Below are positions 1,247-7,250 of a stretch of DNA of 30,775 nt, one piece after another. This stretch comes from a virus (taxonomy: Duplodnaviria; Heunggongvirae; Uroviricota; Caudoviricetes). Position numbers and translations under genes: made by a program. How positions within the stretch are numbered: position 1 is the stretch's first letter; each line of letters starts with the position of its first letter. The notes beneath the pieces are model-generated. The model ran no database searches. It was not told the origin of the DNA and saw nothing but the letters and a program-made list of their open reading frames with translations. The stretch lies in IMG/VR virus record IMGVR_UViG_2877958089_000005. One strand, given 5' to 3'.

Positions 1247-1585
1247 TTAATTACAAAGGGCTGTAGCGGCATCAATCACCGGTGAAATTGAAATTTTAAC
1301 GCCGTCATACTCAGGGTCATCCTTCCATACGTCATCTAAGTTAGACCCCTCCAGCTTTCCTGATTTAACAGCATCTACCGCCATGCCATTCAGAGGATAT
1401 CTATCATCAGTTTTGATGTCATACACAAAAGCATAAGCACGGTTAACACATGATACCTTTGCCTTTTCAAAGGTTAGAGGCCACTTGTCACCATATGCAG
1501 CGCCGTCTATCTCTTTAAACTTCTCAGCGGCTATGACTGAGGAAGAAAGTGCAATGCAGACTATCGCAAATATAAACTTTTTCAT
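1247..1585 (-). CDS. Secreted/periplasmic small protein, DUF2511 (YebY-like) family candidate; moron between cI and int
   Basis: 112 aa; N-terminal signal peptide MKKFIFAIVCIALSSSVIAAE; C-terminal ...AATALCN; pattern GDKWPL...C...YPLNG...GK...DDP resembles YebY/DUF2511 as I recall it; SD AGGAG upstream of ATG 1583-1585. Confidence 0.6.
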   Translation of the reverse strand: MKKFIFAIVCIALSSSVIAAEKFKEIDGAAYGDKWPLTFEKAKVSCVNRAYAFVYDIKTDDRYPLNGMAVDAVKSGKLEGSNLDDVWKDDPEYDGVKISISPVIDAATALCN

Positions 1586-1594
1586 TACTGCTCC

Positions 1595-2440
1595 TTAAAC
1601 ATGCTTTTCCAAAGTAAAAATAACCGCACCTGATGGTGTGATATCTGAAATATTACATTCAAACTCAGCAGACTTATTTGATAACCTGACCTTTCCGCCT
1701 GGCAACCTGATTACGTCAAAAACATCGAGTGCGCCATCAATACCAATAAGCCAGCGACCATTTCCTATCTTCGAGTTAGAACTATCAACAAGCCAAGATG
1801 TGCTCACACCATCAATAAACACTAAATCATCAGTATTTGATGGAACCATAGATATATCAGGAGTCCAGCGTCCGATATCTTTGAGTTCGCCCGCCTCGAG
1901 GCGGCACTTTCTAATCGTTAAAGCATTTGCCGGTTCACCATCATTACTGTTACGCATCTGGCCTTTTCCGGTTGATAACCATTCTAACGATACGCCAGTA
2001 TCAAGGGCGCAAGTGACAACCACGTCACCGGGGAAAAAATCGCGTCTAACCCAAGTGCTTATAGTGCCGGAAGATATGCCTAATAAATCTCCAAGCTCTT
2101 TTTGCAGAGTAAAACCATACGCATCGAGAATCCGACGCAGAACCGCCCTCCCTCCATTTGCCATGATTTCATCATAGAGTTGCTTACCTTTAAGCTTAGT
2201 TTTCACCACTTCAAATCTTGCATTTGCAAGCTCACCATTAATTAGCCATCGCAGGTCAGCTCCAGTATCAAGAGCACACTCAACGAAAACGTTGCTAGGG
2301 ATTACGTTTCTAGCAAGCCAGCTACTCACGTTGTTTGCATGTATGCCAAGCCTTTCGGCTAGTTCCTTTTGCTGCTTAAAGCCGTATGCAGAAAGGACAC
2401 GTTCCAATGCGGCAGACGCATTAACATCATTTTTAGACAT
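1595..2440 (-). CDS. cI: 186-type CI repressor with two tandem CI-type HTH domains and a non-catalytic C-terminal domain
   Basis: The track ORF (1595..2629) has a Cys-rich N-terminal extension that I reject; likely start is ATG at 2438-2440 (MSKNDVNASAALERVLSAYGF...). Two repeats of the motif L-R-x-L-x-AYGF-x-x-QKEL-x-x-LGI...W...CALDTG-x-x-L-x-WL. No Ser-Lys dyad like LexA is recognisable. Confidence 0.75.
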   Translation of the reverse strand: MSKNDVNASAALERVLSAYGFKQQKELAERLGIHANNVSSWLARNVIPSNVFVECALDTGADLRWLINGELANARFEVVKTKLKGKQLYDEIMANGGRAVLRRILDAYGFTLQKELGDLLGISSGTISTWVRRDFFPGDVVVTCALDTGVSLEWLSTGKGQMRNSNDGEPANALTIRKCRLEAGELKDIGRWTPDISMVPSNTDDLVFIDGVSTSWLVDSSNSKIGNGRWLIGIDGALDVFDVIRLPGGKVRLSNKSAEFECNISDITPSGAVIFTLEKHV

Positions 2441-2553
2441 ATGACACCAACAATAATTTTGTTTACAACCAAAATTTAGCGATCTATATTGGTGCTCATC
2501 GACCAAGATGCACACCACTGCACTACATTTCAAACAACAGGAGATAATGCGAT
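2441..2553. promoter_or_regulatory. Lysis-lysogeny switch region; candidate rightward lytic promoter (-35 TTTACA 2462-2467, 17-bp spacer, -10 TATATT 2485-2490)
   Basis: Intergenic region between divergent cI and apl; sigma70-like hexamers with 17-bp spacing; SD AGGAGA at 2537-2542 before apl ATG 2554. In 186 the lysogenic promoter faces the lytic one from inside or beyond apl; I could not place it. Confidence 0.45.
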
Positions 2554-2925
2554 ATGTCAGATGCAAAATCAATCTCGACGAATGATTCGCAAAACTCACA
2601 AAATCAAACTGTGCTGTTAGATCCAACACAGTTTGATGCCATCGTTACCGCCATGCTGCCAGCTCTCCAGACAATGATTCGCTCCGCTATGTCAGACACG
2701 ATGACTGTGAAAGACTTCGCCGCTACTCGCGGTGTTAGCGAGCGTCTGGTCTGGCAATGGCTCGATGAGGGAGTCCTTCTCAAAGCTCCGACCAAAGACT
2801 TTTCCAACAAAGAGGAAGCTGCTAAACGAAGCCGAACCCTCGTAAACGTAAAAGCATGGCGCGATAAGCTGACTCAACAAGCGATTGATTGTCGCTACAT
2901 CGACCAGCGCACCGCTCTTAACTGA
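2554..2925 (+). CDS. apl: Apl/Cox-like excisionase and transcriptional regulator (HTH)
   Basis: First gene of the rightward operon with SD; central MTVKDFAATRGVSERLVWQWLDEG resembles excisionase/AlpA-type HTH. The 123-aa length is longer than I recall for 186 Apl, so the true start may be internal. Confidence 0.6.
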   Translation: MSDAKSISTNDSQNSQNQTVLLDPTQFDAIVTAMLPALQTMIRSAMSDTMTVKDFAATRGVSERLVWQWLDEGVLLKAPTKDFSNKEEAAKRSRTLVNVKAWRDKLTQQAIDCRYIDQRTALN

Positions 2926-2957
2926 ATTTGATTATGCAAGTTAGAGGGAATTTAACC

Positions 2958-3467
2958 ATGTTTGATTTTCAGGTTTCCAAACATCCCCACTATGACGAAG
3001 CATGCCGCATTTTCGCACAGCGTCACAACATGGCGAAGCTGGCCGAGCGTGCAGGTATGAACGTTCAAACGTTACGTAACAAGCTCAACCCGGAACAGCC
3101 TCACCAGTTCACGCCACCTGAATTGTGGCTGCTGACTGACCTGACCGAAGACTCAACCCTCATTGATGGTTTTTTAGCGCAGATTCACTGCCTACCATGC
3201 GTGCCGGTTAATGAGTTGGCTAAAGACAAATTGCAGTCTTATGTCATGCGCGCAATGCGTGAACTCGGCGAACTGGCGAGCGGCGCGGTATCTGATGAGC
3301 GTCTGACCACTGCCCGTAAGCACAACATGATTGAAAGCGTTAACTCTGGTATTCGCATGTTGTCATTGTCGGCTCTGGCACTGCATGCACGTCTGCAGAC
3401 TAATCCTGCAATGTCGAGCGTGGTCGATACCATGAGCGGTATTGGCGCATCGTTTGGTCTGATTTGA
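2958..3467 (+). CDS. cII: CII-like lysogeny establishment regulator (186 CII family)
   Basis: Track ORF starts at 2928, but ATG at 2958-2960 gives MFDFQVSKHPHYDEACRIFAQRHNMAKLAE..., which matches my recollection of the 186 CII N-terminus; 169 aa. Confidence 0.75.
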   Translation: MFDFQVSKHPHYDEACRIFAQRHNMAKLAERAGMNVQTLRNKLNPEQPHQFTPPELWLLTDLTEDSTLIDGFLAQIHCLPCVPVNELAKDKLQSYVMRAMRELGELASGAVSDERLTTARKHNMIESVNSGIRMLSLSALALHARLQTNPAMSSVVDTMSGIGASFGLI

Positions 3468-6777: not shown

Positions 6778-6809
6778 TTGCCAATACATGCTACTGTATA
6801 AATATACAG
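6778..6809 (+). promoter_or_regulatory. SOS-regulated promoter: -35 TTGCCA (6778-6783) with a perfect LexA box CTGTATAAATATACAG (6794-6809) overlapping the -10 region
   Basis: Exact CTGT-N8-ACAG palindrome with AT-rich core; SD GGGAGGG and ATG 6831 immediately downstream. Confidence 0.8.
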
Positions 6810-6830
6810 TAACCCTATGGGAGGGATTTC

Positions 6831-7013
6831 ATGGTTGGCGAACATTTCAGCCGAACGCAGCAAAAGTGGGCTTGTGTGCAATTTATTGCCGAGGTATCTC
6901 TGATTGCAAACTGCAAGCCATCAGACTTAAAGCTCGCGCTCACTCTCATTGCAGACCTAGCAAACAGCGAAAATAACGAAACCGAAGATGATAATTTTTA
7001 TAAGGCTGATTAG
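6831..7013 (+). CDS. Small LexA-controlled protein, candidate Tum-like antirepressor N-terminal module
   Basis: 60-aa ORF directly downstream of the LexA box with SD GGGAGGG; ends at TAG 7011-7013, in the same frame as the following DinI-like ORF. Confidence 0.55.
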   Translation: MVGEHFSRTQQKWACVQFIAEVSLIANCKPSDLKLALTLIADLANSENNETEDDNFYKAD

Positions 7014-7016
7014 ATT

Positions 7017-7250
7017 ATGAGAATCAATATCACGTTGGATAAAGAGCAAAAAATTAGTCAGGCAACATTGGATGCACTTGAGGCTGAACTGTACCGCAAT
7101 CTTCAACCTATTTACCCAAAGACTGCTATCCGAATTCGCAAGGGCTCCGCTAATGGCGTTGAACTAAGCGGTTTGAAACTGGACGAAGATAAAAAACGAG
7201 TAATGGAAATCATGCAGCAGGTATGGGAGGACGATAGCTGGCTGCATTAA
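7017..7250 (+). CDS. DinI-family protein (SOS-associated; 186 Tum-like C-terminal module)
   Basis: 77 aa MRINITLDK...LDALEAEL.R...E.DKKRVMEIMQQVWEDDSWLH resembles E. coli DinI (MRIEVTI...IDALAGEL...ISEILQETWESADDW) along its whole length. Confidence 0.75.
   Translation: MRINITLDKEQKISQATLDALEAELYRNLQPIYPKTAIRIRKGSANGVELSGLKLDEDKKRVMEIMQQVWEDDSWLH

What the first reader, a model, noticed from the sequence alone, without database searches (positions are those of the whole stretch)
1595..2440. CI repressor carries a tandem duplication of the CI-type HTH domain
Residues about 8-70 and 90-155 (numbered from MSKND) are clear paralogous repeats, each ending CALDTG-x-x-L-x-WL. A repressor with two covalently linked DNA-binding modules would recognise extended or bipartite operators and may alter immunity specificity. 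The C-terminal domain resembles a LexA/S24-like beta fold but lacks an obvious catalytic Ser-Lys pair, consistent with antirepressor-driven induction. The 63-codon Cys-rich N-terminal extension in the ORF track is probably not translated.
Basis: partly seen in the sequence, partly recalled or inferred. Interest (0 to 1): 0.45.

Follow-up and report, generated by a model that had tools for sequence, protein, structure and literature searches.

The report
Prophage repressor with two DNA-reading heads
The immunity repressor of this E. coli P2/186-like prophage really does carry two copies of the CI-type DNA-binding domain, and sequence comparisons suggest that the variable first copy reads the phage-specific operator at the early promoter while the near-invariant second copy reads three conserved distant operators.

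Summary
The 281-aa CI (window 1595-2440, minus strand) has two Pfam Phage_CI_repr domains (residues 10-70, 68 bits; 99-163, 98 bits). They are 43% identical to each other (E=1e-23). A 186-type CI C-terminal domain follows.

The architecture is not rare. PSP3, SW9, SEN1 and Midge share it, as do all 120 best database hits. The only paper found that mentions the extra length ascribes it to a longer C-terminal domain.

New here:
- HTH2 is almost invariant (92% mean pairwise identity; synonymous sites diverged). HTH1 varies (64%; 14 recognition-segment variants).
- Single-HTH relatives with the HTH2 recognition helix have the operator AACTTGCA-NN-TGCAAGTT at their early promoter.
- That palindrome occurs in the window only at 2215-2232 and 2925-2942, the positions of 186 FL and FR. 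A third copy lies 14-31 nt past the window end, in front of the ogr/B-like late activator.
- The sequence around pR (palindrome 2455-2476) co-varies with HTH1 type.

Best reading, inferred and not tested: a division of labour. HTH1 sets immunity at pR; HTH2 holds the conserved distal sites.

It is a new variant of the 186-type switch, of moderate interest.

The parts
1595..2440 (-). cI gene: 281-aa immunity repressor (HTH1, linker, HTH2, linker, CI C-terminal domain)
   Evidence: ORF and translation; RefSeq WP_000041620.1 'phage repressor protein CI'; Pfam and PHROG matches; 92% identical to the CI of Salmonella phages SW9 and SI22 and 73% to PSP3 CI
2231..2413 (-). HTH1 (residues 10-70): the variable Phage_CI_repr domain and proposed immunity-specificity determinant
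   Evidence: 68.1 bits scanned alone. Mean pairwise identity 64% and 14 recognition-segment variants among 121 sequences. Forms its own clade, and the only 'single-HTH' proteins in that clade are truncated double-type genes. Family hallmark residues are invariant: Y19, Q24, S39, W41, R44, C55, T59, G60, W65.
2147..2230 (-). Inter-domain linker (residues 71-98). It is disordered from 72 to 84. Helix 86-94 corresponds to the N-terminus of single-HTH CIs.
   Evidence: AlphaFold2 pLDDT below 50 for residues 72-84. Residues 86-281 (196 aa) match the full length of the single-HTH CI P0138, and LYDEIMANGG aligns with its MQLDELEGG.
1952..2146 (-). HTH2 (residues 99-163): the near-invariant Phage_CI_repr domain, orthologous to the single HTH of ordinary 186-type CIs
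   Evidence: 98.2 bits scanned alone. 186 CI (2fjr) aligns with HTH2 plus the CTD. Mean pairwise identity 92% while third-codon-position entropy is 1.39. 78% identical to the HTH of the single-HTH CI P0138, with the same recognition helix SSGTISTWVRR.
1598..1915 (-). 186-type CI C-terminal (oligomerisation) domain
   Evidence: Phage_CI_C, 69-72 bits; Foldseek TM 0.89 and rmsd 1.9 A to 2fkd
2455..2476 (.). Type-specific palindrome AATTTTGTTT-AC-AACCAAAATT over the -35 of pR; proposed HTH1 operator
   Evidence: Inverted repeat. It is the only copy in the window, with 0 expected. Each HTH1 type has its own palindrome at this place. It lies where 186 has its three CI operators.
2462..2490 (+). pR-like early lytic promoter (TTTACA, 17 nt, TATATT)
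   Evidence: Promoter scan, 10 of 12 matches; the hexamers are conserved among relatives
2544..2572 (-). Possible pL (TTGATT, 17 nt, CATTAT) facing pR
   Evidence: Read by eye from the sequence. It scores 8 of 12, below the scanner's threshold. The position is analogous to 186 pL. This is inference only.
2215..2232 (.). FL-like operator ATCTTGCATTTGCAAGCT inside cI (codons 70-75, ELANA); proposed HTH2 site
   Evidence: 2 mismatches to the operator of single-HTH relatives. Found at the same position in most of 51 double-type loci. Third-codon-position entropy is 0.84 here against 1.4-1.6 elsewhere in the gene. 186 FL also lies inside cI.
2925..2942 (.). FR-like operator AATTTGATTATGCAAGTT between the apl-like stop and the cII start; proposed HTH2 site
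   Evidence: 3 mismatches to the motif. Most relatives have perfect AACTTG-N6-CAAGTT arms at the same position. 186 FR occupies the apl-cII gap.
2498..2553 (.). pR-pL spacer, identical in heteroimmune relatives, with TGCAC direct repeats (2509-2513 and 2519-2523); probable binding sites of the Apl-like protein
   Evidence: 100% identity to PSP3, Midge and SW9, with a sharp mosaic boundary at about 2498-2500. 186 has Apl sites at this position.
2554..2925 (+). Apl/Cox-position gene (123 aa), first gene of the early lytic operon
   Evidence: phrog_3554, plus a weak match to Cox-like excisionase and repressor. Annotated as Cox in Midge.
2958..3467 (+). cII homologue
   Evidence: RefSeq 'phage regulatory CII family protein'
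6794..6809 (+). LexA box CTGTATAAATATACAG in front of the SOS operon
   Evidence: The only exact CTGT-N8-ACAG in the window. Same position as the 186 p95 LexA site.
6831..7250 (+). SOS operon: a 60-aa ORF (6831-7013) and a DinI/Tum-C-like ORF (7017-7250); candidate antirepressor module
   Evidence: phrog_1993 and phrog_189. 47% identity to 186 Tum residues 71-145; no similarity to the Tum N-terminal half.
2441..2629 (-). In-frame upstream extension of the cI ORF; not part of the protein
   Evidence: No family match. Not annotated in RefSeq or in the relatives. It overlaps pR, pL and the start of the divergent gene.

Best explanation
The gene encodes a 186-type CI immunity repressor. An extra CI-type HTH module of about 85 residues (HTH1) sits in front of a complete ancestral repressor of 196 residues (HTH2 plus the oligomerisation domain).

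Shown:
- Both domains are bona fide family members.
- HTH2 is under very strong purifying selection across heteroimmune phages.
- HTH1 and the roughly 55 bp next to cI, which carry pR, vary together as a cassette.
- The palindrome that serves as promoter operator in single-HTH relatives of HTH2 occurs in this prophage only at three places. One is inside cI. One is between the apl-like gene and cII. One is over the -35 of the late-activator promoter.

Inferred:
- Dimers oligomerise like 186 CI.
- Pairs of HTH1 bind the type-specific palindrome over the pR -35 and give immunity specificity.
- Pairs of HTH2 bind the conserved FL-like, FR-like and pB-like palindromes. This would give looping or cooperativity, control of the establishment promoter, and repression of the late activator.
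- Because only HTH1 and the adjacent operator need to change, immunity can be swapped as one small cassette.
- Induction is by a LexA-controlled antirepressor operon, not by self-cleavage.
For: Domain architecture:
- Two Phage_CI_repr domains and one Phage_CI_C; internal repeat E=1e-23; fold.

Asymmetric conservation:
- HTH2 has 92% mean pairwise identity against 64% for HTH1.
- HTH2 third-codon positions are nevertheless diverged (entropy 1.39), so this is selection and not recent homogenisation.

The HTH2 operator motif:
- P0138 is a 196-aa single-HTH CI with the same recognition helix as HTH2.
- In 31 P0138-type loci a conserved AACTTGCA-NN-TGCAAGTT sits in the spacer of the divergent TTGACA/TAGATT promoter.
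- That motif, derived independently of the window, hits the window twice against 0.15 expected. Both hits are at the positions of 186 FL and FR.
- It recurs at just those two positions in most of the 51 double-type loci; only three other hits were found (the PSP3 pag-upstream site and one position shared by two loci).
- A third copy with 1 mismatch lies 14-31 nt beyond the window end, upstream of the ogr-like gene. It is also present in the heteroimmune phages Midge, SW9 and PSP3.
- 186 has CI sites at pB of the same type as its FL and FR.
- Synonymous sites are constrained at the FL codons.

The pR cassette:
- Each HTH1 type has its own palindrome over the pR -35.
- There is a sharp mosaic boundary at about 2498-2500.

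Induction:
- LexA box plus a DinI/Tum-like operon.
Against: - There are no binding data; every operator assignment is by sequence.
- The co-variation of HTH1 with the pR sequence could be mere physical linkage inside one mosaic block.
- HTH2 varies too little to test co-variation with its proposed sites.
- The window's own FL and FR copies are imperfect (2 and 3 mismatches). One subgroup of relatives has a degenerate FR.
- The P0138-type elements have a different early operon. That their palindrome is the CI operator is itself an inference.
- The domain arrangement in the AlphaFold2 model is uncertain (pTM 0.41).
- Oligomerisation into a 14-mer was not tested.
Confidence: 0.55

Rival explanations
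1. The two covalently linked HTH modules of one chain bind side by side on one extended or bipartite operator at pR, acting as a natural single-chain pseudo-dimer.
For: Two HTH domains are joined by a flexible linker of about 25 residues. TGCAC direct repeats, which resemble the TTGCA core of the HTH2 motif, lie next to the pR palindrome. 186 CI also makes weak, ill-defined contacts over pL (PMC3675496).
Against: Both operator classes are dyad-symmetric in themselves. This fits two identical domains from a dimer, not one HTH1 plus one HTH2. HTH2 is invariant while the pR-proximal sequence changes with HTH1 type. No HTH2-type motif with 3 mismatches or fewer lies within 130 bp upstream of cI in any of 51 loci. 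The conserved repeats sit where 186 has its Apl sites.
Confidence: 0.15
2. HTH2 no longer binds DNA in the double-type repressor. It is conserved as a structural element or as the docking surface of the SOS-induced antirepressor. The conserved palindromes are bound by some other conserved factor.
For: Conservation higher than in the oligomerisation domain could reflect a protein-protein interface. The SOS operon carries a 60-aa protein unrelated to the Tum N-terminal half. The P0138-type elements also share DUF5347-like and TraR-like genes with the window.
Against: Single-HTH relatives with the identical recognition helix must use that helix on DNA, and their promoter operator is the same palindrome. 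The palindromes sit exactly where 186 CI binds: FL, FR and pB. TraR/DksA-type proteins are not sequence-specific operator binders (own knowledge).
Confidence: 0.15
3. HTH1 is an accessory or decaying domain. HTH2 does all the operator binding, as in 186, and the type-specific palindromes at pR belong to the Apl/Cox-like protein.
For: 186 CI reads two kinds of inverted repeat with one HTH (PMC1904263; the title of Shearwin et al. 2002 is cited there).
Against: HTH1 keeps all family hallmark residues and is retained in hundreds of clusters. There is no HTH2-type site at pR. The Apl-like gene and its flanking spacer are conserved between phages whose pR palindromes differ. An invariant HTH2 cannot account for heteroimmunity.
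Confidence: 0.07

Closest known systems
Coliphage 186 CI repressor (PDB 2fjr, 2fkd) and its switch (pR operators, FL, FR, pB; Tum antirepressor)
   Same: Same Pfam families for the HTH and the C-terminal domain. Same gene order (int-cI facing apl-cII-fil). A promoter-proximal operator next to cI. Single palindromes inside cI, in the apl-cII gap and at the late-activator promoter. A LexA-controlled operon with a Tum/DinI-like protein.
   Different: 186 CI has one HTH in 192 aa, which reads all the sites; reviews describe inverted repeats of two types. Here there are two HTH domains in 281 aa. The proximal and distal palindromes are unrelated sequences: AATTTTG-N8-CAAAATT against AACTTG-N6-CAAGTT. 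186 FL and FR are ATTCAC-N5-GTGAAT. The Tum N-terminal half is replaced by a separate, unrelated 60-aa ORF.
CI of Salmonella phage PSP3 and of SW9, SI22, SEN1, Midge, RCIP0057 (Eganvirus and relatives)
   Same: Same two-HTH architecture (73-92% identity), the same conserved HTH2, and the same FL-, FR- and pB-like sites. This prophage is a member of that group.
   Different: HTH1 and the pR-proximal sequence differ between them, so they are presumably heteroimmune. The one paper found that comments on the length of PsP3 CI says it has a 'longer C-terminal domain' (PMC3448106) and does not mention a second HTH.
Single-HTH CI of the P0138 type (196 aa, uncultivated viral contigs)
   Same: HTH 78% identical to HTH2, with an identical recognition helix. 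Same length as residues 86-281. Its promoter operator is the palindrome found at the window's distal sites.
   Different: It has no HTH1. Its single palindrome sits at its own early promoter. Its early operon lacks apl and cII.
Other tandem CI-type HTH repressors (Klebsiella phage 4LV2017 CI, 313 aa; P0162 and P0170 types)
   Same: Two Phage_CI_repr domains before a CI C-domain. In the 4LV2017 type, the linker also carries a weak copy of the operator of its single-HTH relatives.
   Different: These are independent events. Their two domains are 61-69% identical to each other and group together, or with other single-HTH proteins, not with the window's HTH1 and HTH2.
Engineered single-chain 434 or Cro repressors, and natural two-HTH proteins (AraC/MarA DNA-binding domain; Wolbachia Wmk)
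   Same: Two HTH units in one polypeptide (own knowledge; PMC12889037 and PMC8151288 were listed).
   Different: In those proteins the two units read adjacent halves of one site. Here the evidence favours two separate, symmetric operator classes.

Membership tests
186-type CI immunity repressor (Phage_CI_repr + Phage_CI_C) | N-terminal CI-type five-helix HTH domain | tested here: met
   PF07022 matches at 68 and 98 bits against a cut-off of 22. It is present twice. The model shows five helices in each copy.
186-type CI immunity repressor (Phage_CI_repr + Phage_CI_C) | C-terminal CI oligomerisation domain | tested here: met
   PF16452 at 69 bits against a cut-off of 27; TM 0.89 and rmsd 1.9 A to 2fkd
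186-type CI immunity repressor (Phage_CI_repr + Phage_CI_C) | First gene of a cI-int lysogenic operon that faces an apl-cII-fil early operon in a P2/186-like phage | tested here: met
   ORFs and RefSeq annotation; 100% match to an E. coli prophage; relatives are classified in Eganvirus
186-type CI immunity repressor (Phage_CI_repr + Phage_CI_C) | One HTH per subunit (about 190 aa) | tested here: not met
   281 aa with two HTH domains. This is why it is filed as a variant.
186-type CI immunity repressor (Phage_CI_repr + Phage_CI_C) | Operators at pR plus distal FL, FR and pB sites | tested here: inconclusive
   Candidate palindromes lie at all four positions, but no binding data exist
186-type CI immunity repressor (Phage_CI_repr + Phage_CI_C) | Assembly into a wheel of seven dimers | not testable with these tools
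   Only a monomer model was made
186-type CI immunity repressor (Phage_CI_repr + Phage_CI_C) | Inactivation by a LexA-controlled Tum antirepressor | tested here: inconclusive
   The LexA box and a homologue of the Tum C-terminal half (47% identity) are present. The Tum N-terminal half is absent and a 60-aa ORF of unknown function stands in its place.
LexA / lambda CI type self-cleaving repressors (Peptidase_S24) | Peptidase_S24 domain detectable by sequence | tested here: not met
   No PF00717 hit at E up to 1
LexA / lambda CI type self-cleaving repressors (Peptidase_S24) | Catalytic Ser-Lys pair | tested here: inconclusive
   No invariant Ser or Lys in the C-terminal domain among 59 sequences. 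The nearly invariant S197 aligns with Gln in 186 CI. No residue-level structural superposition was done.
LexA / lambda CI type self-cleaving repressors (Peptidase_S24) | S24-like beta fold | tested here: met
   Foldseek matches to LexA, lambda CI and UmuD C-domains, TM about 0.55-0.6 and E 1e-5 to 1e-2. This is resemblance of fold only.
Single-chain / tandem-HTH proteins that read one bipartite site | The two HTH units of one chain contact adjacent halves of the same operator | tested here: not met
   Two separate symmetric motif classes were found at different loci. No HTH2-type half-site lies next to the pR palindrome. This is sequence evidence only.

The most novel reading that the evidence does not exclude
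The PSP3-type repressor has split the two jobs of 186 CI between two DNA-binding domains. A swappable 'immunity head' (HTH1, with its operator on the adjacent roughly 55 bp) does one job. A fixed 'architecture head' (HTH2) clamps the conserved FL, FR and late-activator sites. This makes immunity a cassette of about 300 bp that can be exchanged without touching distal sites up to several kb away. It also predicts that heteroimmune relatives still bind each other's FL, FR and pB sites, so a resident prophage could shut off the late activator of a superinfecting heteroimmune phage. The FL site may be the relic of the ancestral promoter operator, captured in the linker when HTH1 was fused upstream. 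Comparable fusions arose at least three times independently.
Probability: 0.45. Interest if true: 0.65.

Novelty: new variant of a known kind. Interest (0 to 1): 0.5.

Why it matters
The 186 switch is one of the few quantitatively understood alternatives to the lambda switch. Its single HTH has to read several kinds of site while wrapped around a 14-mer wheel. A natural relative appears to assign proximal and distal sites to separate domains. That would give a clean genetic handle on looping versus repression, because one head can be mutated at a time. It would also explain how immunity specificities diversify by exchange of a small cassette, and it predicts partial cross-regulation between heteroimmune prophages. 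Such prophages are present in about 1% of complete E. coli genomes (68 of 5,426) and in many Klebsiella, Enterobacter and Salmonella genomes. For annotation, the protein is currently labelled only 'phage repressor protein CI'. The one published remark on its extra length that I found misassigns it.

Tried and rejected
- Relic-operator idea. I tested whether the FL site and the sequence after it are the former promoter region of an ancestral single-HTH cI. The position fits (-47 against -56 from the ancestral start). The DNA between the palindrome and the start is no more similar than shuffles (p=0.36). I keep this as speculation only.
- Co-variation of HTH2 with the FL and FR sequences. HTH2 varies too little (8 variants, 103 of 121 identical) for a test.
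- Second single-HTH relative. A search for loci of P0145, to get an independent read of the HTH2 operator, returned only double-type loci.
- Replication in the independent 4LV2017 lineage. This succeeded only in part. The operator of the single-HTH relatives, GTNCCCANNTGGGNAC, is absent from the double-type pR. It appears weakly in the linker in some loci (2-3 mismatches) and not in others.
- P0133. This is the closest 'single-HTH' hit (88%), but it is a 5'-truncated, frameshifted double-type gene, so it was not used.
- NCBIfam. No model exists for the protein.
- Dodd and Egan 2002 (PMC2941640). It could not be read, so the 186 site types rest on the GenBank annotation of U32222 and on PMC1904263.
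- S24 protease membership. Rejected on sequence.

Full report
**What the window is.** The first 6 kb are 100% identical to a prophage of E. coli AST217 that lies next to yfiB; 17 complete E. coli genomes carry this cI region (window 1595-2553) at 99% identity or more. The gene order is int, a DUF2511 gene, cI on the minus strand, then an Apl/Cox-position gene, cII, fil, a TraR-like gene and replication gene A on the plus strand. This is the 186/PSP3 (Eganvirus) layout.

**Checking the observation.**
- The ATG at 2440 opens a 281-aa protein that RefSeq calls 'phage repressor protein CI'.
- Pfam Phage_CI_repr matches twice. Scanned separately, residues 10-70 score 68.1 bits and residues 99-163 score 98.2 bits, against a cut-off of 22. 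Phage_CI_C follows at 176-269.
- The two halves align at 43% identity, E=1e-23. Both end in CALDTG-xx-L-x-WL.
- 186 CI (PDB 2fjr) aligns with repeat 2 plus the C-domain, not with repeat 1.
- An AlphaFold2 model (pLDDT 76, pTM 0.41) shows two five-helix bundles, two disordered linkers and a beta domain. The beta domain superposes on the 186 CI C-domain (TM 0.89). It superposes more distantly on LexA, lambda CI and UmuD C-domains.
- There is no Peptidase_S24 hit.
- The upstream 63-codon extension of the ORF matches nothing. It overlaps the promoters, is not annotated in relatives, and is closed by a stop codon in phage Midge.

**How common it is.**
- PSP3, SW9, SI22, SEN1, Midge, RCIP0057 and vB_EcoM-613R3 have the same architecture.
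- All 120 best hits in the large protein collection are 267-289 aa long.
- About 1% of complete E. coli genomes carry such a gene.
- Among the 150 best 50%-identity cluster representatives found with HTH2 alone, 52 contain two or more copies of the domain, and some contain up to seven.
- A distance tree of the domains shows at least three independent origins. In the window family, HTH1 forms its own clade and HTH2 groups with single-HTH CIs. In the 4LV2017 and P0162 types, the two domains are 61-69% identical to each other.
- I found no paper that describes the second HTH. Nilsson et al. 2011 noted that PsP3 CI is longer and ascribed this to the C-terminal domain (PMC3448106).

**The asymmetry between the two domains.**
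- Across 121 double-type proteins, HTH2 is nearly invariant. Mean pairwise identity is 92%, and 103 of 121 share the recognition segment ISSGTISTWVRRD.
- HTH1 is variable: 64% identity and 14 recognition-segment variants. The C-domain lies in between at 74%.
- The third codon positions of HTH2 are as diverged as elsewhere in the gene (entropy 1.39). The invariance therefore reflects purifying selection, not recent gene conversion.
- At the DNA level there is a sharp mosaic boundary at about 2498-2500. To the right (pR-pL spacer, apl-like gene, cII), Midge is 86-100% identical in every 50-nt window. To the left (pR hexamers, operator, HTH1), identity falls to 44-60%.
- Among 51 loci, each HTH1 recognition type comes with its own palindrome centred on the pR -35.
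- In the window this palindrome is AATTTTGTTT-AC-AACCAAAATT at 2455-2476, over TTTACA of a TTTACA-17-TATATT promoter. It is unique in the window. This is the place where 186 has its three CI operators.

**What HTH2 reads.**
- The representative search turned up true single-HTH CIs whose HTH is 70-78% identical to HTH2. One is P0138, 196 aa, with the same recognition helix.
- In 31 viral contigs that encode the P0138 type, the spacer of the divergent promoter (TTGACA-17-TAGATT) holds a conserved palindrome, AACTTGCA-NN-TGCAAGTT. It occurs once per locus.
- I searched the window for that motif, which was derived without reference to the window. There were two hits against 0.15 expected.
- The first hit, 2215-2232, lies inside cI in the linker after HTH1. 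The second, 2925-2942, lies in the gap between the apl-like gene and cII.
- These are the positions of the 186 FL and FR operators.
- The same two positions, and almost no others, carry the motif in SW9, PSP3, Midge and most of 49 further double-type loci.
- Many FR copies have perfect AACTTG-N6-CAAGTT arms.
- At the FL codons, third-position entropy drops to 0.84, against 1.4-1.6 elsewhere in the gene. This indicates constraint at the DNA level.
- A third copy (AACTTGCAAATGCAATTT, 1 mismatch) lies 14-31 nt beyond the last base of the window in the AST217 genome, over the -35 of the ogr/B-like late-activator gene. The heteroimmune Midge, SW9 and PSP3 have it too.
- 186 has two CI sites at the corresponding promoter pB, of the same type as its FL and FR: ATTCAC-N5-GTGAAT.
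- The loci of 186 and of 4LV2017 fetched here (the switch regions) contain no copy of the window-family motif.

**Interpretation.**
- Residues 86-281 equal a complete single-HTH CI in both length and sequence. HTH1 is an N-terminal addition.
- The most economical reading is a division of labour. HTH1 pairs read the type-specific operator at pR and define immunity. HTH2 pairs read the conserved distal sites.
- The architecture otherwise copies that of 186. In 186, FL and FR assist pR repression and relieve pL, and pB is repressed (PMC3675496).
- Both motif classes are dyad-symmetric.
- None of this has been shown by binding. HTH1-operator co-variation could be linkage, and HTH2 varies too little for a co-variation test. 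I put the model at about 0.55.

**Induction.** A perfect LexA box (6794-6809) precedes a 60-aa ORF of unknown family and a DinI-like ORF. The DinI-like ORF is 47% identical to the C-terminal half of the 186 antirepressor Tum. The Tum N-terminal half has no counterpart. This fits SOS induction through an antirepressor, with a different CI-contacting part. HTH2 could be its target, but that is untested.

**Verdict.** The feature is real and correctly described. It is a member of a widespread but undescribed two-HTH variant of the 186-type CI. The added value here is a specific, testable model of two operator classes served by two domains.

Noticed in passing
window 1247-1585 (-): A DUF2511/YebY-like secreted protein (112 aa, signal-peptide-like N-terminus) lies between int and cI. 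It is conserved at this spot in PSP3, SW9, Midge and RCIP0057 and is probably a lysogeny-expressed moron.
   Followed up: partly
window 2498-2640: The pR-pL spacer is 100% identical among heteroimmune relatives and holds TGCAC direct repeats 10 bp apart (2509-2513 and 2519-2523). The 5' end of the apl-position gene holds direct repeats CAAAATCAA[T/A]CT (2564-2575 and 2599-2610) and a 14-nt inverted repeat (2603-2616 with 2624-2637). These are likely sites for the Apl/Cox-like protein.
   Followed up: partly
window 2554-2925 (+): The gene in the apl position encodes 123 aa (phrog_3554) with only a weak Cox-like match (E=8e-5). Nilsson et al. 2011 called the PsP3 counterpart a singleton without detectable domains.
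   Followed up: no
window 6794-7250 (+): The SOS operon looks like a 'split Tum'. It has a LexA box, then a 60-aa ORF (phrog_1993) unrelated to the Tum N-terminal half, then a separate DinI-like ORF 47% identical to Tum residues 71-145.
   Followed up: partly
14-31 nt beyond window end (L089 146-163; NZ_AP043630.1): The window stops exactly at the stop codon of tail gene D. The ogr/B-like late activator and its candidate CI operator lie just outside the window. The prophage sits between yfiB and rplS.
   Followed up: yes
P0159, P0166, P0190, P0192, P0206, P0215: Some proteins carry 5-7 tandem copies of a Phage_CI_repr-like HTH (for example 525 aa with 7 copies and 1170 aa with 6). Their function and context are unknown.
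   Followed up: no
L006, L229-L245 (Klebsiella phage 4LV2017 type): This is an independently arisen two-HTH CI. Its inter-HTH linker is homologous to the N-terminus of single-HTH relatives (KYPNEIKINPNQGGKAAIERLV). In some loci the linker keeps a weak copy of those relatives' operator, GTNCCCANNTGGGNAC, while the pR-proximal sequence has been replaced.
   Followed up: partly
L008-L038 (viral contigs of about 15 kb): These elements encode the single-HTH P0138-type CI. They lack apl and cII; their early operon starts with a 91-aa protein and a TraR/DksA-like zinc-finger protein. The nature of the element (satellite or defective phage) was not determined.
   Followed up: no
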